The translations under genes were made by a program, and so were the position numbers. From positions 38,910-102,909 of the forward strand of contig JAIYAX010000023.1 of assembly GCA_027488815.1 (NCBI GenBank): a stretch of 64,000 nucleotides of DNA, written 5' to 3'. The DNA is from Cytophagaceae bacterium (GTDB lineage Bacteria; Bacteroidota; Bacteroidia; Cytophagales; JAIYAX01). Below are positions 43,253-52,034 of this stretch, in pieces. The stretch's first letter is position 1, and each line of letters starts with the position of its first letter. The notes under the pieces are model-generated. The model did not search any database and was not told where the DNA came from. It saw only the letters and a program-made list of their open reading frames with translations.

Positions 43253-43969
43253 TTGATTAGTTTTGTACTTTATCTGAACAATACCCTGAACCCAACACTA
43301 CGATATCAACTGTTGTTTCTGATCAGTTTGCTTATGCTGATGGGTTCTTGCAAAAAGAAAATGGTTTGTCCTGCCTATCAAAGTCAGTTTATTCTGGACA
43401 AACAGACAGCCGATGTACGATTCTCTGGCTTTCAAATCGTGGAGTCTGATACAGTGCCACATGAAGTCAAACCGCATGATAAGTTCAAATACGGTTTGAT
43501 GCCCCGGCTAAGCGAACGTAAAAAGTGGAAGCAGGTTCGTACTGTAGAAATGAAATTGCTTTTTGCTGAAAAAGCAGATACTTCGGCCTCCATAATTGTA
43601 CTTGGCGACAGCACAGGTGAAGTAAGTTCAGATGTAAGCAGGGAGCCATTGACTACTGAGATCAATGTAGATCAGGCGAATTATTTTATCATTTTGGGTC
43701 CGCTTTTACCCAGACCTAAGGAGAAAAAAGAGTCTGAAAAAAAGGAGGAAGGAAAAGAAGAGGAACCCCTTTCCAAAGTGGAGCGGCAATTACGTAAAGA
43801 AAAAGAAAAAGAAGAGCGAAAAAAAATGCGAAAAGGTGAAGCGCCTCCTGTGCGCTATCTTCTGCCTGAAGAACTGCTGAATGAGGACGGAACTGACCCT
43901 AGAGAAAACCGACCCAAGCAGGCAAAACCGGTGGTTGAGGAGGAAGAACCAACCGATCCGGAACGTTAG
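43253..43969 (+). CDS. Hypothetical lipoprotein (start uncertain)
   Basis: Hydrophobic stretch ending MGSC, then CPAYQS; charged low-complexity C-terminus. A TAGTTTTG box at 43258-43265 suggests the true start is downstream of 43253. Confidence 0.65.
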   Translation: MISFVLYLNNTLNPTLRYQLLFLISLLMLMGSCKKKMVCPAYQSQFILDKQTADVRFSGFQIVESDTVPHEVKPHDKFKYGLMPRLSERKKWKQVRTVEMKLLFAEKADTSASIIVLGDSTGEVSSDVSREPLTTEINVDQANYFIILGPLLPRPKEKKESEKKEEGKEEEPLSKVERQLRKEKEKEERKKMRKGEAPPVRYLLPEELLNEDGTDPRENRPKQAKPVVEEEEPTDPER

Positions 43970-46920
43970 ATCACAATATTGATAATCCTGCCGGGTACCA
44001 CCACCACTTTTTTGGCTGGTTTACCTTCCATCCATTTTTGAACCGGCTCTAGCTGAAGCGCTGCTTTTTCTATATCCTGAGGTGTTAGATCCAAGGCAAG
44101 TTCTACGTTTGCACGATGCTTACCATTGATTGAAACCGGATAGTTAAAGGTGTTTTCGATCAGGTATTCCTCATTCCACTGAGGGAATGCAGCAGAGGAG
44201 ATGGACGTGTTGTGCCCTAATTGGCTCCAAAGTTCTTCAGCAATATGTGGGGCAAAAGGGCTTATCAGGACAGCCAATGGCTCCAGAACGCTTCTTTTTT
44301 TGCATTTGAGGGCTGATAAATCGTTTACACAAATCATAAAAGCACTCACAGTGGTATTGAAGGACAATTTCTCCATGTCCTCTTCCACTTTTTTGATGGT
44401 TTTGTGCAAGGCTTTTAACTCTTCTTTGGTCGGGCTTTGCTCGTTGACTTGAAAGTTAAACTGCTCATCATGAAACAGATTCCAGAATTTTTTAAGGAAT
44501 CGATGCACCCCATCTATACCATGTGTGCTCCAGGGTTTACTTTGCTCGATAGGCCCAAGGAACATTTCGTAAAGCCTTAAGGTATCTGCACCATAGCTGT
44601 CACAAATCTCATCCGGGTTCACAACGTTGTACTTGGACTTGGACATTTTTTCGATTTCGATGGGCAGCAAAATTTCCGGCATGTTCGACCCATCAAAACT
44701 GGAAGCCTGAAGTGTTGGAACCATAGCTTCTTCTGAACTTATAGCTAATCGTTTTAGTGCAGCAGCGACATCATTTGCAGAAAAGGTGATGTCTTTCAAA
44801 AAGTCATACTTTTTTCTGTTTTTCTCGTGTGTTTCTGCATCTAAAGCGTAGTACAATTTATCTCCTTCAGATTTAATGGGAACACCATCGATCGGATAAT
44901 TGATGGTTTGCAAAAACTCTTTTGGAATTGATTTCGATAAAGCTGGTGGTATCAGTGTTCTGATTTGCGTAGACTCAGAATGTGCCACATACAAACTTGC
45001 TTTAGCGCTGACTCCCTGTATCATCCCCTGATTGACCAGCTTTTTAAACGGTTCCTCCACAGGAACAAAACCCAAATCATATAAAATCTTGCACCAAAAG
45101 CGGGAGTACAATAAGTGGCCGGTGGCATGCTCGGCTCCGCCCATGTAAAGGTCTACCTGGCCCCAAAAGTCAAGGGCTTCTTTACCGGAAAATACACCAT
45201 TGTTCTGGGCATCCATGTACCTGAACCAGTACCAGCTACTTCCTGCCCAGCCCGGCATAGTGCTTAGCTCCAGTGGATATCCTGCTCCATTTTCAACAAT
45301 CCCTTTTCCTGGCTGGTAGTTCCAGTTATTGGCCCTCCCAAGCGGAGGCTCCCCTGATTCAGTTGGTAGAAACTTATCGATCTCAGGAAGCAGCAAAGGA
45401 AGTTCCTCTTCTTGCAGGGTGTAAGGCATTCCGTCTTTGAAATAAACGGGCAGGGGCTCCCCCCAATACCGCTGACGGGTAAAAATGGCATCTCTTAGCC
45501 TGTAATTGGTTCTGCCTTTGCCGGCCTGACCGGCTTCCAATTGCTGAATACATCGGTCGATGGCTTCCGGTACCTCTAGTCCATCTAAAAACGAAGAGTT
45601 GATCATTGCGCCATGCTTCTCGTCCCAGGCAGCAAGTGAAAAATCGTGGCTTTGAGCAGGTTCAATTACTTGTTTTACAGGTAGCCCGAAATGTTTGGCA
45701 AAGGCAAAGTCTCTGCTGTCGTGAGCAGGTACAGCCATCACCGCCCCGGTGCCATAGCCGGCAAGCACATAGTCGCCTACCCAGATGGGCAAAGGGGCTG
45801 AAGTGAAAGGGTGCAACACATAAGAGCCGGTGAAAACCCCGGATATGGTTTTGACATCCGACATGCGATCTCTTTCGGAGCGGTTTTTTGCCTTGTCGAC
45901 ATAAGCCCGCACTGCTGCCTGCTGTTCCTTCGTGGTTAGGCGCTCTACCCATTCATGCTCAGGGGCGATGGTGACAAAAGTGACCCCAAAAAGAGTATCT
46001 GGGCGAGTGGTGAATACTTCTATGGCACCTTCACCCGCCTGCAACGGGAAAAATACCTGTGCCCCTCTGGACTTGCCGATCCAGTGACGCTGCATTTCCT
46101 TAACAGGATCAGGCCATTCGATCTCTTCTAGCCCTTGCAGCAGTCTGTCGGCGTATGCAGTGATCCGCATCATCCATTGCAGCATGTTTTTACGCTCCAC
46201 AGGATGGCCACCACGCTCTGAAAAGCCATCTTTTACCTCATCGTTGGAGAGTACCGTCCCTAGCGCAGGGCACCAGTTCACAGTTGTCTCAGCGAGGTAA
46301 GCTAGCCGATAATGAAGCAGGATACTTTGTTGCTTTTTTTCCGGGTAGGCGTTCCAATCTTCAGCGCTGAACACATCAGGTTGAACATCAGTGGCAGCCT
46401 TAACTTTTGCATTCCCTTCGGAGCTAAATCGTTCGATCAAGCGTGAGACAGGTTCTGCCTTTTGGGTTTCCATGTTGAACCAACTATGGAATATCTGTAT
46501 AAAGATCCATTGGGTCCAGCGGTAGTATTCAGGGGCGCAGGTTTGCACCTCACGGCTCCAGTCGTAGTTGAAGCCAATGCGCCTCAGTTGTTTTTTATAG
46601 GTGCTGATGTTCTGGGCTGTGGTGATGGCAGGGTGTTGCCCTGTCTGAATAGCATATTGCTCGGCAGGAAGGCCAAAGGCATCAAAACCGGCAGGGTGAA
46701 GCACCTGGAAGCCTTTGTGCTTTTTGTAGCGGGCCACAATATCAGTGGCGATATAACCAAGCGGATGACCCACATGAAGTCCTGCTCCGCTGGGGTAAGG
46801 AAACATGTCTAAGACATAAAATTTGGCTTTCTCATCGGAAGAGGCAGTTTTAAAAGTGTGATGTTGTTCCCAATAGTTCTGCCATTTGGGTTCTATTTCC
46901 TGTGGGCGGTATTCCGGCAT
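43966..46920 (-). CDS. leuS: Leucine--tRNA ligase
   Basis: MFPYPSGAGLHVGH, FTTRPDT editing domain, RQRYWG, GGAEHA, KMSKS. Confidence 0.98.
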   Translation of the reverse strand: MPEYRPQEIEPKWQNYWEQHHTFKTASSDEKAKFYVLDMFPYPSGAGLHVGHPLGYIATDIVARYKKHKGFQVLHPAGFDAFGLPAEQYAIQTGQHPAITTAQNISTYKKQLRRIGFNYDWSREVQTCAPEYYRWTQWIFIQIFHSWFNMETQKAEPVSRLIERFSSEGNAKVKAATDVQPDVFSAEDWNAYPEKKQQSILLHYRLAYLAETTVNWCPALGTVLSNDEVKDGFSERGGHPVERKNMLQWMMRITAYADRLLQGLEEIEWPDPVKEMQRHWIGKSRGAQVFFPLQAGEGAIEVFTTRPDTLFGVTFVTIAPEHEWVERLTTKEQQAAVRAYVDKAKNRSERDRMSDVKTISGVFTGSYVLHPFTSAPLPIWVGDYVLAGYGTGAVMAVPAHDSRDFAFAKHFGLPVKQVIEPAQSHDFSLAAWDEKHGAMINSSFLDGLEVPEAIDRCIQQLEAGQAGKGRTNYRLRDAIFTRQRYWGEPLPVYFKDGMPYTLQEEELPLLLPEIDKFLPTESGEPPLGRANNWNYQPGKGIVENGAGYPLELSTMPGWAGSSWYWFRYMDAQNNGVFSGKEALDFWGQVDLYMGGAEHATGHLLYSRFWCKILYDLGFVPVEEPFKKLVNQGMIQGVSAKASLYVAHSESTQIRTLIPPALSKSIPKEFLQTINYPIDGVPIKSEGDKLYYALDAETHEKNRKKYDFLKDITFSANDVAAALKRLAISSEEAMVPTLQASSFDGSNMPEILLPIEIEKMSKSKYNVVNPDEICDSYGADTLRLYEMFLGPIEQSKPWSTHGIDGVHRFLKKFWNLFHDEQFNFQVNEQSPTKEELKALHKTIKKVEEDMEKLSFNTTVSAFMICVNDLSALKCKKRSVLEPLAVLISPFAPHIAEELWSQLGHNTSISSAAFPQWNEEYLIENTFNYPVSINGKHRANVELALDLTPQDIEKAALQLEPVQKWMEGKPAKKVVVVPGRIINIVI

Positions 46921-47151
46921 TTTAGAAGTTATTCAGACTGCGAAAGTAGGGAAAATGGGGGATTTTGTGGGTTTAGAGGGCTTGTGGAGTTTGGAAAGTT
47001 AGAAACCCTATGGCTATTAGCTACTGCTCTTTCTATTTTAATTGATAGTTGAGGTTGAACTGCAGGGATGACAATTCTTACGATATTGCTTCTGGATAGC
47101 AAATCCTGAAGAGCAGATATTATTTTTATATTTGTTCAAACGAGTTCATGT

Positions 47152-47319
47152 ATGACAGTTGTAATCAATAAGTCAAACCTCAAGGATACCTCGAGTATTT
47201 TAAGTGAAAAACTTAAAAAGTCTTCGAAAAAAGGAAATTTACTTAAACATTTTGGTAAATTAAAGAGAAATATTGATGGCTTAGAATACCAACTTTCGGT
47301 TAGGGATAATGAAGATTGA
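47152..47319 (+). CDS. 55-aa putative VapB-type antitoxin
   Basis: Below the ORF-track cutoff. MTVVINKSNLKDTSSILSEKLKKSSKKGNLLKHFGKLKRNIDGLEYQLSVRDNED*; TATATTTG box at 47127-47134; overlaps the start of a PIN-like gene. Confidence 0.7.
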   Translation: MTVVINKSNLKDTSSILSEKLKKSSKKGNLLKHFGKLKRNIDGLEYQLSVRDNED

Positions 47320-47374
47320 TTTTATTGCTGATACTAACTTTCTGGTTCCCCCCCCCCTCAGTGTCACCCGGTAG
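47309..47374 (+). pseudogene. Truncated PIN/VapC toxin, first ~12 codons only
   Basis: MKIDFIADTNFL (PIN N-terminal hhhDTN motif), then runs into a C-tract and hairpin repeat and stops. Confidence 0.7.
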
Positions 47375-47436
47375 GGGACGCTGAGGACTCCCTCTCCCTT
47401 CACCCCCTCATTATCAAACGATTGTAGGCACTGAGA
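47356..47436 (+). repeat. Two tandem copies (50-bp period) of 31-bp REP-like hairpin family A
   Basis: CCTCAGTGTCACCCGGTAGGGGACGCTGAGG (47356-47386) and a decayed same-length copy (47406-47436), each followed by CCTCTCCCTTCAC. Confidence 0.8.
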
Positions 47437-47475
47437 GTTCCTCTCCCTTCACAGATTTCCATTTGTTTTCCCCCA

Positions 47476-47501
47476 TTGGTTGGTGTTCCGCCACCAACCA
47501 A
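47476..47501. repeat. Perfect 10-bp-stem hairpin (REP-like family C)
   Basis: TTGGTTGGTG-ttccgc-CACCAACCAA. Confidence 0.7.
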
Positions 47502-47502
47502 A

Positions 47503-47748
47503 TTTTCCACCCCTTCCCCATCACCCGATAGGGGATACTGAGGGGGCTCATTTGCTCTCTACCACCCAACCACCAATTACATCCCTTTTGTATCTTGCAA
47601 CATGCGCTCGCTCTGTTCCACCCTCATCTCCAGCTACCCCCAGCGGCACTGGTACTAGGGCGACTACAGCGAGAAAACATTGAAAGGATTAAAATTAAAC
47701 CACTCTTCCTCAGTGTCCTCCAAGGAGTGACACTGAGGGAGTGGAAAA
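47503..47748. mobile_element. ~245 bp MITE/REPIN-like element, copy 1
   Basis: Starts TTTTCCAC and ends GTGGAAAA; family-A hairpins in opposite orientation at 47513-47543 and 47708-47738; direct repeat of 48485-48729. Confidence 0.7.
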
Positions 47749-47777
47749 GCAATCTATCAATCAAAATTTCAATATAC

Positions 47778-48188
47778 ATGGAAATTAAAGTCGGACGATT
47801 TAAGTTTCTTGATATTTTATATTATGGAATATATTCTATGATTTATAAGAATAAGTCATACAGAATAGGCCAAGATCACAATAGAATACTAATTTATTTT
47901 AGTCTTTATATTAGCTTTTTGGTGATTATATCCATGCTTTTTATATTACATTTCACTAACTATGCCAGTAAATATATTTCTATTCTAAAAATCATAATTG
48001 TGCCAATTTATATTTTTTTTTATTTTACTGTGAATAAATATTTTGACGAAAATCATTATTTAGCAATCATTCAAAAGTTTGAAAATGAGATTGGAAGGAA
48101 AAAAGGGAGAGTCATTGGTATTGTAAGTTTTGTTGTTTTTTTGTTTATGGCCTTTGGTGTCCCTTTTATATTGAGCAAATTTAAGTAG
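47778..48188 (+). CDS. AT-rich hypothetical membrane protein (136 aa)
   Basis: ATG 47778 (the track's upstream extension runs through the repeat); about three hydrophobic segments; very low GC. Confidence 0.7.
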   Translation: MEIKVGRFKFLDILYYGIYSMIYKNKSYRIGQDHNRILIYFSLYISFLVIISMLFILHFTNYASKYISILKIIIVPIYIFFYFTVNKYFDENHYLAIIQKFENEIGRKKGRVIGIVSFVVFLFMAFGVPFILSKFK

Positions 48189-48204
48189 AGCTTTTTGAAG
48201 CTTA

Positions 48205-48253
48205 CATTTTCAACTTCCCCCCTGCAGCACTGGTACCAGGGTGACTACAGCGA
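48205..48253 (+). repeat. Third, partial copy of the internal segment of the 245-bp element
   Basis: GCACTGGTACCAGGGTGACTACAGCGA matches the segments near 47646-47672 and 48629-48654. Confidence 0.8.
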
Positions 48254-48291
48254 TCTCGACCCATTTATACAGTTTTGTCGACACCATGTGC

Positions 48292-48487
48292 TCAATAATG
48301 CCCCTTTGCATGGTGGATCACCACAACATCTTCCACCACCTCATAAATCAGGCGATGTTCACTGTTTATTCTACGAGACCAGAAGCCTGATAGCTTATGC
48401 TTTAACGGTTCAGGTTTTCCAGTTCCTGTAAAAGGATGTTCCGTTAATTCGGTAAATAAAACTGCTATTTTAAGCAAAATAGACTTT
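48292..48487 (-). pseudogene. Txe/YoeB toxin lacking its native N-terminus; no antitoxin
   Basis: KSILLKI...HPFTGTGKPEPLKHKLSGFWSRRINSEHRLIYEV...HHAKGHY; upstream codons derive from the repeat element. Confidence 0.82.
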
Positions 48488-48729
48488 TCCACCCCCCTCA
48501 CCGTCACCCGATAGGGGACACTAAGGAGGCTCATTTGCTCTCTACCACCCAACCACCAATTACATCCCTTTTGTATCTTGCACCATTCGCCTGCCCTGTT
48601 CCACCCTCATTTCCAGATACCCTCAGCGGCACTGGTACCAGGGTGACACAGCGAGAAATCTTTGAAAGGATTAAAATTAGACCACTCAATCCTCAGTGTC
48701 CTCCAAGGAGTGACACTGAGGGAGTGGAA
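48485..48729. mobile_element. ~245 bp MITE/REPIN-like element, copy 2
   Basis: Near-identical to 47503-47746; hairpins at 48496-48526 and 48691-48721. Confidence 0.7.
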
Positions 48730-48797
48730 TTTGAGGGCATTAAACAATCATTAGGAGGTAATACAGTAGTTTTGCAAGGCTTTAGAGGCTTTTAGGT

Positions 48798-49472
48798 ATG
48801 GAGCATGAATATACTATAGTTTCAGTTTCCAGAACACTTTACTTCATTAGGGTATTTGGCTCAATTTTTATTGGCACAATGCTACAGTGGCCTTTTTATA
48901 TGCTTTTTTCAATTATTCCTCATGAAATAGTTTTTGTTGTTGTTGGATTACTAACTGCATACATGCTTTCAATCGTTACTAAGAAGCTTTATAGAGGTTG
49001 TTTGATTATTCGGTTTAGTGAAGAATTTGTGGAAATTGAAAACTATATTCCTTTACTTAGAAAGAAAAGTCATTTGACTTTCAAATGGAGTGAGCTAAAG
49101 AAGTTTGGCTTTGTTGATACTCAATATTTTAGAATTCTTGTTGTTAAGGACGGAAATAAAAAGATCCATATTGCTATGGATTATGATGAAGCAGTATATA
49201 ATTTTGAATGCGATTTAAATAGAAAGTTGGATGAATTAAAGGAGTTAGGAATATTAGATATTGTTAAACTGCCTAGTATTTATGAAAGAAAGATTGGGCT
49301 TTTTATAGCCATATTACTTTTAGTATTAATGGTCGTTTGGCCTATTGTTATCTTTATTAATGATGCTCAATTTAACATTGGGTTGATGTTGGTGTTTTAT
49401 TCGGGATCTTTGTTCTACATTTATGTTGTTTTCAAGAAACAGCAAAGTAAGATTCTCGCATATTTCTCTTAG
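48798..49472 (+). CDS. AT-rich hypothetical membrane protein (2 TM, soluble domain, 2 TM)
   Basis: 224-aa ORF with clean ATG, low GC; TAGTTTTG box at 48767-48774. Confidence 0.72.
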   Translation: MEHEYTIVSVSRTLYFIRVFGSIFIGTMLQWPFYMLFSIIPHEIVFVVVGLLTAYMLSIVTKKLYRGCLIIRFSEEFVEIENYIPLLRKKSHLTFKWSELKKFGFVDTQYFRILVVKDGNKKIHIAMDYDEAVYNFECDLNRKLDELKELGILDIVKLPSIYERKIGLFIAILLLVLMVVWPIVIFINDAQFNIGLMLVFYSGSLFYIYVVFKKQQSKILAYFS

Positions 49473-49486
49473 GCCACAGCCCCCAA

Positions 49487-49547
49487 CTGGCTCAAGTCTG
49501 TGACTTGTGCCTCCTTGAATGCTAGACTCTCCCCTTCAGTGTCACCC
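49487..49547 (+). repeat. REP-like family B hairpin followed by the left arm of a family A hairpin
   Basis: CTGGCTCAAGTCTGTGACTTGTGCCT (49487-49512); CTTCAGTGTCACCC (49534-49547). Confidence 0.75.
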
Positions 49548-49617
49548 AATAACAGGTTCCGCCATCGCCTTTACCACACTACTATTTGTTTGATTTATCT
49601 GGCACTTAAATTTATGA

Positions 49618-49842
49618 TCAGTCAGTGTCCTGAAGATCAGTTTTGTCAACCCCCGCTTGCTTCAGAATGGCGTACAAAGTTCCTTTAGGGAGATCTTTTT
49701 TATGCATTGGTACCACTGTTATTTTGCCTGATACTGGATTTTGATAGATGTGATGACTACCTTTTATCCGCTTTAACACAAATCCTTTACTTTCAAGGAG
49801 TTTACATAATTCTAAAGAGGTAAATGCAAGAAGATTACCCAA
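49618..49842 (-). CDS. hicA: HicA family toxin
   Basis: LESKGF...RIKGSHHIY...VVPMHKKDLPKGTL.AILKQAG; TTG start 1 nt after the hicB stop. Confidence 0.9.
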   Translation of the reverse strand: MGNLLAFTSLELCKLLESKGFVLKRIKGSHHIYQNPVSGKITVVPMHKKDLPKGTLYAILKQAGVDKTDLQDTD

Positions 49843-49843
49843 A

Positions 49844-50071
49844 TTAAGAGGCTAGAGTAAGTGAATACTCAAGAGTTTTGCTGTCATCAGGAACGGGCAA
49901 TCCTTGTTCTTTAAGTACTTCTATATAGCCTTCAATTGCTTCTTTTGCCATTGCAAGGGCCTCGGAGATGTTTTCGCCATAAGTAATACATCCAGGCAGC
50001 GAAGGCACTGATACTGTAAACCCCCCTTCTGTTTCTTCCGATAACAGTACTCTATAGGTCATCATGTCCAT
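49844..50071 (-). CDS. hicB: HicB family antitoxin, short form
   Basis: GGFTVSVPSLPGCITYGENISEALAMAKEAI; no C-terminal DNA-binding domain. Confidence 0.92.
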   Translation of the reverse strand: MDMMTYRVLLSEETEGGFTVSVPSLPGCITYGENISEALAMAKEAIEGYIEVLKEQGLPVPDDSKTLEYSLTLAS

Positions 50072-50135
50072 CAAATTTCATAAACAATTTTTAAAAATAA
50101 AAATGGGCATCCTTATACCTCCTTTGTATCACCCT

Positions 50136-50231
50136 TGCTGGCGCAAGTCTTTGACTTGTGCCTCACTGCTGGCGCAAGTCTTTGACTTGTGCCTCCCCCT
50201 CCTCAGTGTCACCCGGTAGGGGACTCTGTGG
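50136..50231 (+). repeat. Two identical tandem family B hairpins followed by a family A hairpin
   Basis: TGCTGGCGCAAGTCTTTGACTTGTGCCTC at 50136-50164 and 50167-50195; CCTCAGTGTCACCCGGTAGGGGACTCTGTGG at 50201-50231. Confidence 0.88.
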
Positions 50232-50359
50232 GGTCTCAATTACTTACTTTCAGCATTAGCATATGAATGACATTGGAATTTAATCTCAAATTTGAATTAA
50301 TACCCGCCTTTACAAATCTGCTGTCTCGGATTATATCTTGCTTCACCTAAATTTGAGAA

Positions 50360-50692
50360 ATGGCAAAATCAAAATCCTGGAGCACCCGGGCCCTTGAAAA
50401 CCTCCACGTGCCTCTTTGGCTAATTAAGGATACCTCATGGATGATGCAATGGAAACTGTTAGGAACTCTGATGGTAATACCCACTTTGACGGTTGCCTTT
50501 TGGATCGTTTGGAAAACCAGAAATCAGTCCATCATGTGGGTGAATGTGGCGGTTTGTTGCTGGATAGCGGCCAACTCTACCTGGATGCTGGGAGAGTTTT
50601 TCAAATGGAATTACCTCCCTTTTTCTCTTGCCTTTTTTATTTCCGGTGCCTTGGCTATGTTTCGTTTCACGGCCAAACAATCACTTAATTGA
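50360..50692 (+). CDS. Small hypothetical membrane protein
   Basis: ENLHVPLWLIKD.SWM, WIAANSTWM.GEF; host-like GC. Confidence 0.75.
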   Translation: MAKSKSWSTRALENLHVPLWLIKDTSWMMQWKLLGTLMVIPTLTVAFWIVWKTRNQSIMWVNVAVCCWIAANSTWMLGEFFKWNYLPFSLAFFISGALAMFRFTAKQSLN

Positions 50693-51314
50693 TCTCTTCA
50701 GGAGCCACACCGGGCTTTGCGTAACTCAGCCTTCCCAGTTTGGTTGTCTTATGGTAGCCATCAAGACCACTACAGGTGATTGTGCCTGCTTTTTCAATAT
50801 CCAAATAGCCATCAGAGGCTATCAAACCTTGTTCAAGAATGACTTCCTGCACCGATCCGATAAGCAAAATAGTGCCATTTATGCTTAGTTTTTGTTGTTC
50901 TTCCAGTTTGAGGCCAATCCTGATGATAGATTGCTCTACATAGGGAGCAGGGTTTAAAGAAGAATACCAGGGAGTTAATCCAACAGCCTCAAACTCCGAC
51001 TGCTGATAACGTGCGCTGGTTTGATGGGCTTGTTTGTAAAATGACTCCAAAACATGATTGAAGGTGAACCAACCCATTTCATTGATGTTTTGAAGGCTAT
51101 GTCTCTCGACACTGTCAGGTCGTACCAACACCCCCATCAGTGCAGGCGATGCTCCTATGTGGAATACCTGACTGAAAACAGCCAGGTTGGTCACTCCGGC
51201 TCGGTTGATACTGCCTATAAGATTGAGACTTTTAAAGCCGCTCAGCCCGTTGATCAGATTTCTCCTGAACAAGGGCTCCATCCGATCAAAATCTTCTCGG
51301 AAAAGGTGTTCCAC
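50685..51314 (-). CDS. Flavin reductase-like (FMN-binding split barrel) protein
   Basis: RNLINGLSGFKS.NLIG, NLAVFS, RHSLQNI, AHQTSARY, SEF. Confidence 0.85.
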   Translation of the reverse strand: MEHLFREDFDRMEPLFRRNLINGLSGFKSLNLIGSINRAGVTNLAVFSQVFHIGASPALMGVLVRPDSVERHSLQNINEMGWFTFNHVLESFYKQAHQTSARYQQSEFEAVGLTPWYSSLNPAPYVEQSIIRIGLKLEEQQKLSINGTILLIGSVQEVILEQGLIASDGYLDIEKAGTITCSGLDGYHKTTKLGRLSYAKPGVAPEEIN

Positions 51315-51320
51315 GCTGGA

Positions 51321-52034
51321 TTATCTTAAACTGCCCAAACCACCATCTACCCCGATGACCTGCCCTGTGATCCATGATGCAGTTGAGTCGAGCAGGAAAC
51401 AGGTAGCCGCAGAAAGGTCTTCAGCAGTACCAATTCTGCCCAAAGGATGTCTTTTGTCTGAAGCTTCTCTTTTTTCAGGCGAGCTCAGCAAAGCCCCGGC
51501 CAAAGGGGTATCTGTCAGCGAAGGCGCCAGCACATTAACCCTGATTTTTGAGGGAGACAGTTCCGCAGCCAAACTTCTTCCCAATCCTTCAACAGCCCCT
51601 TTGGAGGCTGCTACAGAAGCATGGAAACCCATGCCGACGCCAACGGCCACAGTGCTAAACAAAACCACAGAGGCTCCGCCGGCTTGTTTCAAATTTTTAA
51701 GTGCTGCCTGTATTGATCTTACTGCTCCCGATACGTTCACTGCAAAATCCTGCTCAAAATCTTGAACTGTTAACCTTGCAAAGGGCTTTAGGTTAATGGT
51801 TCCGGGGGAATACACCAGCCCATGGAGTTGCTCAGGCAAATGCGCTTGCAATGAGCTGAGGTCTGTTGTGACATCTGCCACTTGGTGTTGCAAGTGAGGG
51901 GATTCTATCGGCAAAGACCTTCTGGACCACACCAGCACATTGGCACCTTCTTCAAGCAGTTGCTTGACAACAGCAAGTCCAATGCCTGAACTACCACCCA
52001 CAACTAGGTAGTTTTTTCCGTTTTTATCAGCCAT
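51321..52034 (-). CDS. Atypical SDR oxidoreductase
   Basis: VGGSSGIG, RVNVLAPS, WITGQVIGVDGG; HASVAASK in place of YxxxK. Confidence 0.88.
   Translation of the reverse strand: MADKNGKNYLVVGGSSGIGLAVVKQLLEEGANVLVWSRRSLPIESPHLQHQVADVTTDLSSLQAHLPEQLHGLVYSPGTINLKPFARLTVQDFEQDFAVNVSGAVRSIQAALKNLKQAGGASVVLFSTVAVGVGMGFHASVAASKGAVEGLGRSLAAELSPSKIRVNVLAPSLTDTPLAGALLSSPEKREASDKRHPLGRIGTAEDLSAATCFLLDSTASWITGQVIGVDGGLGSLR

What the first reader, a model, noticed from the sequence alone, without database searches (positions are those of the whole stretch)
47127..50231. Integrase-free, hairpin-delimited cassette array of TA modules and orphan membrane genes
Seen order: antitoxin + truncated vapC, A, A, C, [A-spacer-inverted A], orphan gene, spacer fragment, truncated yoeB, [A-spacer-inverted A], orphan gene, B, half A, hicA, hicB, B, B, A. 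Nearly every gene boundary coincides with a GC-rich hairpin, the cargo is AT-rich, and no recombinase lies in the window. Established: REP/REPIN hairpins are substrates of HUH (RAYT/TnpA-REP) enzymes acting in trans, and integron arrays accumulate TA and orphan cassettes. Inference: a REP-directed gene capture and shuffling hotspot that behaves like an integron array without attC/IntI. This is the best candidate for an undescribed system here.
Basis: partly seen in the sequence, partly recalled or inferred. Interest (0 to 1): 0.78.

Follow-up and report, generated by a model that had tools for sequence, protein, structure and literature searches.

The report
REP hairpin-studded, strain-variable toxin-antitoxin islet
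A 3-kb gap between two housekeeping genes of a freshwater Bacteroidota bacterium holds broken and intact toxin-antitoxin genes and two orphan membrane genes separated by REP-type hairpin repeats, and related strains carry different genes there with the differences starting at the hairpins.

Summary
The hairpins are REP/REPIN-type repeats. Family B flanks RAYT (REP-associated tyrosine transposase) genes elsewhere in this genome. Family A flanks a RAYT-like gene in two other Cytophagales genomes, but no close relative of that gene was found here. vapC keeps 13 of 121 codons and yoeB lacks its first 15 profile positions; both breaks lie exactly at A-family repeat edges. In an independent metagenome, the dominant strain's contigs leave the window sequence at the edge of A1. 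One contig replaces orphan2-to-hicAB (1436 nt) with 723 other letters, joined at the end of an inverted A and the start of a B repeat. Genome-wide, 10 of 14 other toxin-antitoxin marker loci lie within 600 nt of a repeat-family hairpin, against 6-11% of ORFs. No integron integrase or attC-like core was found. Best reading: a flexible toxin-antitoxin islet colonised by resident REPs that act as breakpoints for deletion and replacement. RAYT-driven, integron-like cassette exchange is not excluded but not shown: no module is duplicated, hicA relatives in other species lack these hairpins, and the A copies are decaying.

The parts
47152..47319 (+). 55-aa VapB-like antitoxin candidate (no Pfam or NCBIfam family)
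   Evidence: ORF. It has 105 relatives, nearly all exactly 55 aa and unnamed. In G477 and G120 the homologue overlaps a 121-aa PIN gene.
47309..47347 (+). vapC (PIN toxin) stub: 13 of 121 codons, then read-through into A1
   Evidence: Translation is MKIDFIADTNFLV followed by repeat-derived residues. 12 of 13 residues are identical to the start of the G477 PIN protein, and the rest was not found by tblastn in the assembled genome.
47348..47387 (+). A1, REP family A hairpin with C-rich leader
   Evidence: Folds at -11.8 kcal/mol, z -2.9. Pattern matches.
47403..47437 (+). A2, decayed A copy (tandem with A1, with a shared 18-nt tail)
   Evidence: Repeat families D2 and D20. Does not fold better than shuffles.
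47471..47507 (+). C, REP family C hairpin
   Evidence: Folds at -10 kcal/mol, z -4.8. 32 copies genome-wide, including tandem arrays on C7, C28 and C19.
47503..47746 (+). Long REPIN-like composite, copy 1: A3 (47510-47547), spacer with segment D (47637-47672), inverted A (47707-47746)
   Evidence: 90.65% identical to copy 2 over 246 columns. The ends are inverted repeats, TTCCAC...GTGGAA. A3 and inverted A fold significantly.
47778..48188 (+). orphan1, 136-aa AT-rich predicted membrane protein
   Evidence: ORF. No family above threshold. 2 relatives among 5.8 billion proteins. 2 of 401 genomes of the order match, counting the window's own.
48218..48253 (+). Isolated fragment of the composite's spacer (segment D)
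   Evidence: Repeat family D5. Not a hairpin.
48292..48486 (-). yoeB toxin stub lacking its N-terminus and its antitoxin
   Evidence: Matches Pfam YoeB_toxin positions 16-80 of 80 and TIGR02116. Homology ends at the left end of composite copy 2.
48485..48729 (+). Long REPIN-like composite, copy 2
   Evidence: Its A arm is decayed. Its inverted-A arm is identical to that of copy 1 (family D3).
48798..49472 (+). orphan2, 224-aa AT-rich predicted membrane protein
   Evidence: ORF. No family. One relative, P0001, at 91% identity. 3 of 401 genomes of the order match, the two others weakly.
49485..49513 (+). B1, REP family B hairpin
   Evidence: Folds at -7.7 kcal/mol, z -3.9. Repeat family D6. 12 copies on 7 contigs.
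49531..49547 (+). Half-A: left arm of an A repeat only
   Evidence: Repeat family D2. Does not fold.
49618..49842 (-). hicA toxin, apparently intact
   Evidence: Pfam HicA_toxin, E 7.9e-23.
49844..50074 (-). hicB antitoxin, short form
   Evidence: Pfam HicB_lk_antitox, E 1.4e-12.
50136..50195 (+). B2 and B3, tandem identical B repeats (period 31)
   Evidence: Tandem repeat score 120. Folds at -18.7 kcal/mol, z -7.1.
50195..50231 (+). A4, decayed A copy at the right edge of the islet
   Evidence: Pattern match. Fold not better than shuffles.

Best explanation
This is a flexible islet between leuS and a conserved flavin-reductase gene block. It holds type II toxin-antitoxin (TA) modules in various states of decay: vapB with a vapC stub, a yoeB stub, and an intact hicAB. 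It also holds two AT-rich orphan membrane genes. The islet has been colonised by three resident REP families of this genome (A, B, C), including two copies of a 245-nt REPIN-like doublet of family A.

The REPs act as breakpoints. Insertion of REP units into TA genes, followed by recombination between REP copies, truncates genes and lets whole segments be lost or swapped between strains. That recombination could be homologous or slipped at hairpins, and possibly helped by RAYT nicking. The islet therefore looks like a cassette array without any dedicated capture machinery.

Shown: the anatomy, the REP/RAYT identity of B and A, the truncations at repeat edges, strain differences that start at repeat edges, and genome-wide co-location of REPs with TA genes.

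Inferred: that recombination at REPs is the process, and the order of events.
For: - **Anatomy and repeat families:**
- **B is a REP with cognate RAYTs.** B sits on both sides of the RAYT-like ORF at C6:158803-159282, in inverted orientation, and about 380 nt from the RAYT at C10:34941-35384, which scores 114 bits against the NF047646 cut-off of 80. In other genomes a RAYT homologue lies within 600 nt of a B hairpin in 5 of 80 loci.
- **A is a REP.** In L024, A lies about 55 nt upstream of a 202-aa ORF that matches NF047646 at E 5e-15 (55.5 bits, below the cut-off of 80), and an inverted-A-like hairpin lies at its 3' end. L048 shows the same upstream arrangement. A compact A + 24 nt + inverted-A doublet lies at C8:111172-111265.
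- **Truncations at repeat edges.** vapC homology ends at 47347, one base before A1. yoeB homology ends at the left end of composite copy 2.
- **Strain differences (run X3, another study, depth about 112).** A 926-nt contig matches 46795-47347 with no substitutions, then runs on unlike for 374 letters. A 2324-nt contig matches 48591-48727, then has 723 other letters, then matches 50164-51626. So 1436 nt (orphan2, B1, half-A, hicAB, B2) are replaced, with joints at the end of inverted A and the start of B3.
- **Generality.** 10 of 14 TA marker loci outside this islet (8 Pfam families searched) lie within 600 nt of a repeat-family hairpin. The comparison figures are 3.8% of 5000 random segments, 5.9% of 2890 ORFs and 11.0% of 621 short ORFs. 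5 of the 14 are bracketed on both sides within 1.5 kb, 3 of them by the same family. On C7, two C-hairpin arrays bracket a TacA/GNAT module.
- **Precedent in print.** The folA-apaH site of E. coli holds a decaying ccd TA module, with REPs in about half of isolates (Delihas 2011, PMC3184786, passages read).
Against: - The strain evidence rests on contigs of one independent run for the clean joints. The 723 and 374 unlike letters could not be read.
- The 723 letters could be a diverged orphan2 allele (under 88% identity) combined with a simple B1 x B3 deletion, rather than different cargo.
- Breakpoints at repeats are partly expected, because assemblers break contigs at repeats. The joint in the 2324-nt contig is nevertheless internal to one contig.
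- The B repeats are only 29 nt and the A arms about 40 nt, which is short for RecA-dependent recombination.
- In Pseudomonas, REPs mark old stable DNA, and strain-specific genes lie in REP deserts (PMC3390384, passages read). A passive-accumulation model does not by itself predict the strong REP-TA co-location seen here.
- The TA census used 8 Pfam families only.
- The repeat-family hairpin list came from my own hairpin finder and clustering.
Confidence: 0.55

Rival explanations
1. Active, RAYT-driven cassette exchange. REP-bounded segments are cut and rejoined as single strands by HUH/Y1 RAYT enzymes acting in trans. On this reading, REPs play the part of attC sites and TA or orphan genes are mobile cassettes.
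For: - Joints fall at exact repeat-unit edges at three places (47347, 48727, 50164).
- Modules are bracketed by same-family repeats: B-hicAB-B B here; C array-tacAT-C array on C7; B-restriction/modification-B B on C16; F1-PIN-F1 on C11.
- 10 of 14 other TA loci lie next to family hairpins.
- The genome has two RAYT genes above the NF047646 cut-off, two just under it (one of these with an internal TAG stop), and two weaker Y1-transposase loci that score higher on PF01797.
- In print, RAYT cleaves and rejoins REP DNA in vitro (recalled: Ton-Hoang 2012; PMC3479197 seen in a search listing only).
Against: - No module is present twice in the genome.
- 0 of 80 loci with hicA relatives in other species carry A, B, C or D repeats.
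- The 10 ORFs scanned beside A-type hairpins in 8 other Bacteroidota loci gave no TA or RAYT family; 6 matched no family at all.
- The A family has no close RAYT here (best 31% identity), and 4 of the 7 A units folded are decayed.
- The three B copies are direct repeats, not the unlike left and right ends of IS200/IS605 elements.
- REPIN duplication is reported to be extremely rare (bioRxiv 10.1101/2024.07.17.603846, passages read). That study also saw no circular REP DNA in E. coli.
Confidence: 0.2
2. The hairpins are functional parts of the gene modules, such as insulators, mRNA-stabilising or processing sites, or protein-binding sites. They are kept beside TA operons by selection. On this reading, co-location reflects regulation, not mobility.
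For: - REPs have reported roles in mRNA stability and in protein binding (abstracts of PMC3479197 and PMC3733652 in a search listing).
- The strong REP-TA co-location.
- The two composites each sit 31-68 nt upstream of an orphan gene.
Against: - Terminator-like sites are no more frequent than in shuffles (3 found against 3.0 +/- 1.9).
- No Rfam family reached its gathering score: the single match at E up to 1 scored 20 bits against a threshold of 155.
- Hairpins interrupt coding sequence (vapC, yoeB), which is damage, not regulation.
- Many copies are decayed.
Confidence: 0.1
3. Degenerate integron (a cluster of attC sites lacking an integrase), or an assembly artefact of a metagenome-derived genome.
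For: The look of the array: short cassettes, TA genes, orphan genes. The genome is a 30-contig assembly and the repeats are of the kind that confuse assemblers.
Against: - No integron integrase: 0 of 6 TIGR02249 matches exceed the cut-off (best 84 bits against 265).
- 0 attC-core-like pairs in the region (shuffles 0.62 +/- 1.05).
- The hairpins belong to RAYT-linked families.
- Contigs of run X2 match without any difference across most boundaries: 46795-47500, 47717-48557, 48700-49536 and 49552-50590. Runs X7 and X9, from other studies, cover 49512-49711 and 49805-50711.
Confidence: 0.04

Closest known systems
REP / REPIN - RAYT systems (Nunvar 2010; Bertels & Rainey 2011; seen in search listing and abstracts)
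   Same: Short GC-rich imperfect palindromes in intergenic DNA. Doublets in inverted orientation (C8 compact doublet, the two 245-nt composites). RAYT genes flanked by their own repeat family (B here; A in L024 and L048).
   Different: Very low copy numbers: about 11 A units, 12 B, 32 C, against the hundreds that are typical. At least 10 small families occur in one genome. The doublet spacer is about 160 nt against the 60-70 bp pair spacing reported in Pseudomonas. The repeats are concentrated beside TA and other accessory genes, whereas in Pseudomonas such genes lie in REP deserts (PMC3390384).
Variable folA-apaH intergenic site of E. coli with decaying ccdO157 TA and REPs (Mine 2009, as described in Delihas 2011, PMC3184786; the original paper is not held)
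   Same: A site between housekeeping genes that holds a TA module in some strains, defective or absent in others, with REP sequences present and suspected of causing the plasticity.
   Different: Here several TA modules and orphan genes are interleaved with three REP families. Gene truncations fall exactly at repeat edges. The association holds for most TA loci of the genome.
Integron cassette arrays and clusters of attC sites without integrase
   Same: Short gene units, many of them TA or orphan genes, separated by structured repeats. Content differs between strains.
   Different: No IntI. No attC core motifs. The repeats belong to HUH/RAYT-linked families. Genes lie on both strands with their own spacing.
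IS200/IS605 elements and their transposase-less derivatives (PATEs); ISCR gene capture by HUH enzymes (recalled, not read here)
   Same: HUH/Y1 enzymes act on hairpins in single-stranded DNA. Precedent for HUH-driven mobilisation of passenger genes.
   Different: No unlike left and right ends, no conserved target tetranucleotide shown, and no second copy of any module in the genome.
Integration hotspots / minimal mobile elements between conserved core genes (E. coli defence hotspots, PMC10121019, abstract only; Neisseria minimal mobile elements, listing only)
   Same: Accessory cargo is exchanged between fixed core flanks with no recombinase in the islet.
   Different: Those are explained by homologous recombination in the flanks. 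Here the internal joints coincide with REP units.

Membership tests
REP/REPIN-RAYT system | Short GC-rich imperfect palindrome repeated in intergenic DNA | tested here: met
   A, B and C fold better than shuffles and recur in the genome.
REP/REPIN-RAYT system | High copy number (typically over 100 per genome) | tested here: not met
   blastn-short hits covering at least 70% of the query: A 3 plus inverted A 2, B 12, C 32. The largest de novo family has 21 members.
REP/REPIN-RAYT system | A RAYT gene flanked by the same repeat family | tested here: met
   B: flanks the RAYT-like ORF on C6 on both sides and lies near the RAYT on C10. A: only in other genomes, L024 and L048; the best relative in the window's own genome is 31% identical. 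C: no RAYT was seen beside its copies, and this was not searched systematically.
REP/REPIN-RAYT system | Doublets of two repeats in inverted orientation (REPIN) | tested here: met
   Compact A + 24 nt + inverted-A doublet on C8. Two 245-nt composites with inverted A arms in the window.
REP/REPIN-RAYT system | RAYT binds, cuts and rejoins the repeat as single-stranded DNA | not testable with these tools
   Needs biochemistry.
Integron / attC cluster | Integron integrase IntI | tested here: not met
   TIGR02249: 0 of 6 matches over the cut-off, best 84 bits against 265.
Integron / attC cluster | attC sites with RYYYAAC ... GTTRRRY cores | tested here: not met
   0 core pairs at 40-130 nt spacing in 47100-50300, on both strands; shuffles gave 0.62 +/- 1.05. 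No covariance-model search was available.
IS200/IS605-type mobile element with passenger genes | More than one copy of the same element, with defined unlike ends and a Y1 transposase | tested here: not met
   Only the repeats recur; no gene-bearing segment of the islet has a second copy in the genome. No Y1 transposase on contig C5.
Type II toxin-antitoxin modules | Adjacent small toxin and antitoxin genes of known families | tested here: met
   HicA and HicB matches. YoeB stub. The 55-aa ORF is paired with a PIN gene in G477 and G120. In the window, vapC and yoeB are truncated.
Xer/dif-type modules (as on Acinetobacter plasmids) | 28-bp XerC-spacer-XerD sites in alternating orientation around each module | not tested
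   Considered from memory only. The hairpins here have 10-13-bp stems with 3-6-nt loops and are RAYT-linked. No Xer-site model was available.

The most novel reading that the evidence does not exclude
REP hairpins in this lineage are the recombination sites of a RAYT (HUH) driven cassette-exchange system, a single-strand analogue of the integron. It files TA, restriction-modification and orphan membrane genes into REP-bounded slots and swaps them between strains. That would give RAYT/REP systems a function that has been sought since their discovery.
Probability: 0.17. Interest if true: 0.85.

Novelty: new variant of a known kind. Interest (0 to 1): 0.55.

Why it matters
What REPs and their domesticated RAYT transposases do for the cell is an open question. 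In the best-studied genomes, REPs avoid recently acquired DNA.

Here a freshwater Bacteroidota genome carries many small REP families and four RAYT-type genes. In this genome, REPs sit beside most TA loci, cut two toxin genes exactly at repeat edges, and coincide with the joints where natural strains differ in gene content.

If REPs are the breakpoints, passively or through RAYT action, they would be a general route of accessory-gene turnover that needs no integrase or transposase in the islet. The locus also offers concrete substrates for testing RAYT activity: the B repeats around hicAB, and the RAYT gene on C10.

Tried and rejected
- **Fetching the contig of the 91%-identical orphan2 relative (P0001).** Its flanks stay unseen.
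- **Relatives of orphan1 in genome contigs.** None found.
- **RAYT remnant inside the 245-nt composites.** tblastn of the L024 RAYT against 47100-50300 gave only chance-level hits (best E 0.075). Rejected.
- **The two orphans as paralogues.** No significant similarity.
- **Locus comparison with relatives.** The only congener (G001, about 70% DNA identity, 360 contigs) has leuS and the flavin-reductase block on different short contigs with other neighbours. It is too distant to date events.
- **Parts without cover in run X3.** Orphan1 and the yoeB stub (bins 47887-48320) had depth 0-0.4, but no contig joins across them. This is not used as evidence of absence.
- **Weak joints.** The joints 47390>48503 (X9, side 25) and 49511<>50195 on opposite strands (X3, side 32) can arise from repeat cross-mapping and were set aside. 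The 49530>47526 joints in X7 and X9 (15 letters between, depth 5.75 and 10.7) suggest a further composite copy after B1 in some strains. They are low depth and were used only as a hint.
- **First hairpin finder.** It was too strict: it caught 3 merged units in the locus. It was replaced by a laxer finder with clustering.
- **TA panel against 80 B-hairpin loci of other genomes.** No TA hits at all. The panel finds only close relatives, so this says little.
- **Rfam.** One sub-threshold match to a plant microRNA family (20 bits against 155). Chance.
- **Papers.** Searches found no paper describing REP-bounded TA cassette arrays or RAYT-driven gene capture. Mine 2009 is not held. Supplements were not consulted.

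Full report
**1. What is there**

The window is G000:C5:38910-102909. The finding lies between leuS (43966-46920, minus strand) and a 110-aa membrane ORF (50360-50692). That ORF is followed by a flavin reductase, a short-chain dehydrogenase, folE and a 6-pyruvoyl-tetrahydropterin synthase-like gene.

- a 55-aa ORF, then a vapC start;
- A1, A2, C;
- a 245-nt composite (A3, a spacer with segment D, inverted A);
- orphan1, an isolated D fragment, a yoeB stub;
- a second copy of the composite, 90.65% identical over 246 columns;
- orphan2, B1, a half-A;
- hicA, hicB;
- B2, B3, A4.

The orphan genes have 22-31% GC in 300-nt windows. The genome mean is 43.9%.

**2. Are the hairpins real?**

Twelve units were folded as single-stranded DNA.

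- Six fold better than dinucleotide shuffles: A1 (z -2.9), C (-4.8), A3 (-2.4), inverted A (-3.7), B1 (-3.9) and B2-B3 (-7.1).
- Six do not: A2, both D copies, the A arm of composite copy 2, half-A and A4.

The array is therefore a mix of intact and decayed repeat copies. D is a piece of the composite's spacer, not a hairpin.

**3. The broken genes**

The 55-aa ORF has 105 relatives among 5.8 billion proteins. Nearly all are exactly 55 aa, and none carries an informative name. In two other genomes (G477 at 87% identity, G120 at 57%) it overlaps a 121-aa gene. That gene begins MKIDFIADTNFLI in G477 (MKVDFFADTNFLI in G120) and matches the PIN domain.

In the window the same reading frame gives MKIDFIADTNFLV and then runs into A1. 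tblastn with the G477 protein finds only residues 1-13 here, and finds the rest nowhere in the assembled genome. vapC therefore keeps 13 of 121 codons. Homology ends at 47347, one base before the C-run that opens A1.

The yoeB ORF matches Pfam and TIGR models from position 16 to 80 of 80. The missing N-terminus and the expected upstream antitoxin are replaced by composite copy 2, whose left end is at 48485. hicA and hicB look intact.

**4. What the hairpins are**

The genome has six Y1-transposase-like loci. By the NCBIfam RAYT model, two exceed the cut-off of 80 bits: C10:34941-35384 at 114 bits and C17 at 106.5 bits. Two lie just under it: C6 at 78 bits, with an internal TAG stop, and C4 at 75 bits. 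Each locus is surrounded by its own hairpin family.

*Family B.* B sits on both sides of the C6 gene in inverted orientation, and about 380 nt from the C10 gene. A RAYT homologue 42-48% identical to the C10 protein lies within 600 nt in 5 of the 80 loci held.

*Family A.* A is rare here. Eight units lie in this islet, there is one compact A + 24 nt + inverted-A doublet on C8, and one degenerate match on C20. In the public genome collection, A-type hairpins occur in several Cytophagales and other Bacteroidota genomes.

- In L024 (a Roseivirgaceae genome) the hairpin lies about 55 nt upstream of a 202-aa ORF. That ORF matches the RAYT model at E 5e-15 (55.5 bits, below the cut-off) and is 31% identical to the C4 RAYT-like protein. 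An inverted-A-like hairpin lies at its 3' end.
- L048 shows the same upstream arrangement.

No close relative of this RAYT exists in the window's genome (best 31% identity). The genome is 99.6% complete in 30 contigs, so a copy in a gap cannot be excluded.

*Family C.* C has 32 copies, mostly in tandem arrays near contig ends.

De novo clustering of hairpins gave 45 small families, the largest with 21 members.

**5. Not an integron**

No integron integrase was found: 0 of 6 TIGR02249 matches exceed the cut-off. There are four ordinary tyrosine recombinases, none on C5. No attC-core-like pair occurs in the region. No Rfam family reached its gathering score. Terminator-like sites are not above chance.

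**6. Do strains differ at the hairpins?**

The one congener in the genome collection is too distant, at about 70% DNA identity. There, leuS and the flavin-reductase block lie on different contigs with other neighbours. So the islet sits at a synteny break, but events cannot be dated.

Public sequencing runs were more useful. Contigs of four runs were laid on 45500-52000.

*Run X2* is from the same study as the probable source. Its contigs match without difference and bridge most boundaries.

*Run X3* is from another study and holds the organism at depth about 112-118.

- A 5185-nt contig is identical over leuS.
- A 926-nt contig matches 46795-47347 with no substitution, then continues for 374 letters unlike the window. 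The break is exactly where vapC is cut by A1. The 374 letters are just longer than the 327 nt that an intact vapC would still need; that link is an inference, because the letters could not be read.
- A 2324-nt contig at depth 111.8 matches 48591-48727 (9 differences), then has 723 other letters, then matches 50164-51626 (22 differences). In that strain the 1436 nt from orphan2 to B2 are replaced. The joints lie 2 nt from the end of inverted A and 3 nt before B3.

*Runs X7 and X9*, from two further studies, carry hicAB at 98-99% identity. X7 carries an orphan2 allele with 49 differences in 616 positions. Low-depth joints suggest a further composite copy after B1 in some strains.

Three caveats apply. 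These are contigs, not reads. Only one run gives clean internal joints. The 723 letters might be a strongly diverged orphan2 allele combined with a B1 x B3 deletion.

**7. Is the pattern general in this genome?**

Eight Pfam TA families were searched. They gave 16 marker loci, two of them in this islet, and 4 of the other 14 have internal stops or are split.

- 10 of the 14 other loci lie within 600 nt of a hairpin belonging to a repeat family with three or more members.
- The comparison figures are 3.8% of 5000 random segments (binomial P about 6e-12), 5.9% of 2890 ORFs and 11.0% of 621 short ORFs.
- 5 of the 14 are bracketed on both sides within 1.5 kb, three of them by the same family.

Two examples stand out. 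On C7, two tandem arrays of C hairpins, each preceded by a further repeat, bracket a TacA + GNAT module. On C16, three B copies bracket a low-GC block with a cytosine methyltransferase-like gene.

The reverse test failed. None of 80 loci with hicA relatives in other species (best 71% identity) carries A, B, C or D repeats. The 10 ORFs scanned beside A-type hairpins in 8 other Bacteroidota loci gave no TA or RAYT family: 4 matched other families and 6 matched none. The repeats belong to the host genome, not to the travelling TA genes.

**8. Explanation**

The most economical reading (0.55) is a flexible islet in which TA modules and orphan genes come and go. Resident REPs have colonised it and now provide the breakpoints. 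REP units inserted into vapC and yoeB. Recombination or slippage between repeat copies removed the rest of those genes. The same process deletes or swaps segments between strains.

The E. coli folA-apaH site is a described precedent: it holds a decaying ccd module, with REPs in about half of isolates (PMC3184786, passages).

What this reading does not predict well is the strength of the REP-TA association. In Pseudomonas, strain-specific DNA is REP-poor (PMC3390384, passages).

It explains the precise joints and the bracketing. It has no direct support and several observations against it: no duplicated module, decayed A copies without a cognate enzyme, direct rather than paired-end repeats, and the very low REPIN mobility reported in print. 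I give it 0.2.

A regulatory role for the hairpins gets 0.1. An integron remnant or misassembly gets 0.04.

**9. Comparison and novelty**

The parts are known kinds: REP/REPIN-RAYT elements, type II TA modules, and variable intergenic hotspots. The combination is a new variant:

- many tiny REP families;
- a REPIN-like doublet with a 160-nt spacer;
- gene truncation exactly at repeat edges;
- strain differences joined at repeat edges;
- a genome-wide tie between REPs and TA loci.

Six literature searches found no description of such arrays or of RAYT-driven gene capture. Supplements were not seen, and many journals are not held.

**10. Verdict**

Interest is 0.55. The finding is not an undescribed machine on present evidence. 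It is a clear, testable case for REPs as sites of accessory-gene turnover.

Noticed in passing
G000:C7:22852-24371 (outside the window): Two tandem arrays of C hairpins bracket a TacA (DUF1778) + GNAT toxin-antitoxin module. One array has about 9 copies and the other about 5, both with a period of about 36 nt. Each array is preceded by a further shared repeat.
   Followed up: partly
G000:C16:262954-267081 (outside the window): Three B hairpins in the same orientation bracket a low-GC block (0.36-0.40). The block holds a cytosine-methyltransferase-like gene (348 aa) and a 326-aa neighbour, probably a restriction-modification system.
   Followed up: partly
window 47629-47672 (segment D): In runs X3 and X9 this 44-nt segment occurs at much higher depth than its surroundings, with different flanks on both sides (tables 3 and 7). 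So it is a repeat in its own right in those communities. In this genome it occurs only in the islet.
   Followed up: no
window 48740-49355 (orphan2): The orphan2 allele in run X7 differs at 49 of 616 positions (92% identity). The adjacent hicAB pieces from the same run are 98-99% identical. The only database relative, P0001, is 91% identical. This suggests allele exchange or fast divergence of the orphan gene.
   Followed up: no
window 47152-47319; L195:1498-1665; L196:1495-1662: The 55-aa partner of the PIN toxin belongs to a tightly conserved family with no name. It has 105 relatives, nearly all exactly 55 aa, many in Flavobacterium. It looks like an unrecognised VapB-type antitoxin family.
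   Followed up: partly
L198-L277 (genome-contig hits of the B pattern): The B-type hairpin is found in at least 118 loci across Bacteroidota and Chloroflexota. Some genomes hold many copies (Paludibacter sp. 221), and L277 holds an array with an 81-nt period. A RAYT homologue is adjacent in 5 of the 80 loci held. This range across phyla is unusual for a REP type.
   Followed up: partly
L013 (G001:C129) and L034 (G001:C172): In the only congener, leuS is next to a lipoprotein-like gene. The flavin-reductase block is next to a 226-aa outer-membrane-like gene, on another contig. The islet therefore lies at a synteny break.
   Followed up: partly
window 49547-49565: The half-A is followed by GGTTCCGCCATC, which resembles the loop and right arm of the C hairpin (TGTTCCGCCACC). 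This may be a chimeric A/C repeat junction.
   Followed up: no
window 50360-50692: A 110-aa predicted membrane ORF at the right edge of the islet has no Pfam or NCBIfam family. It is present in the X3 strain's right-flank contig, which is 98.5% identical over 50164-51626. It is not beside the flavin reductase in the congener.
   Followed up: no
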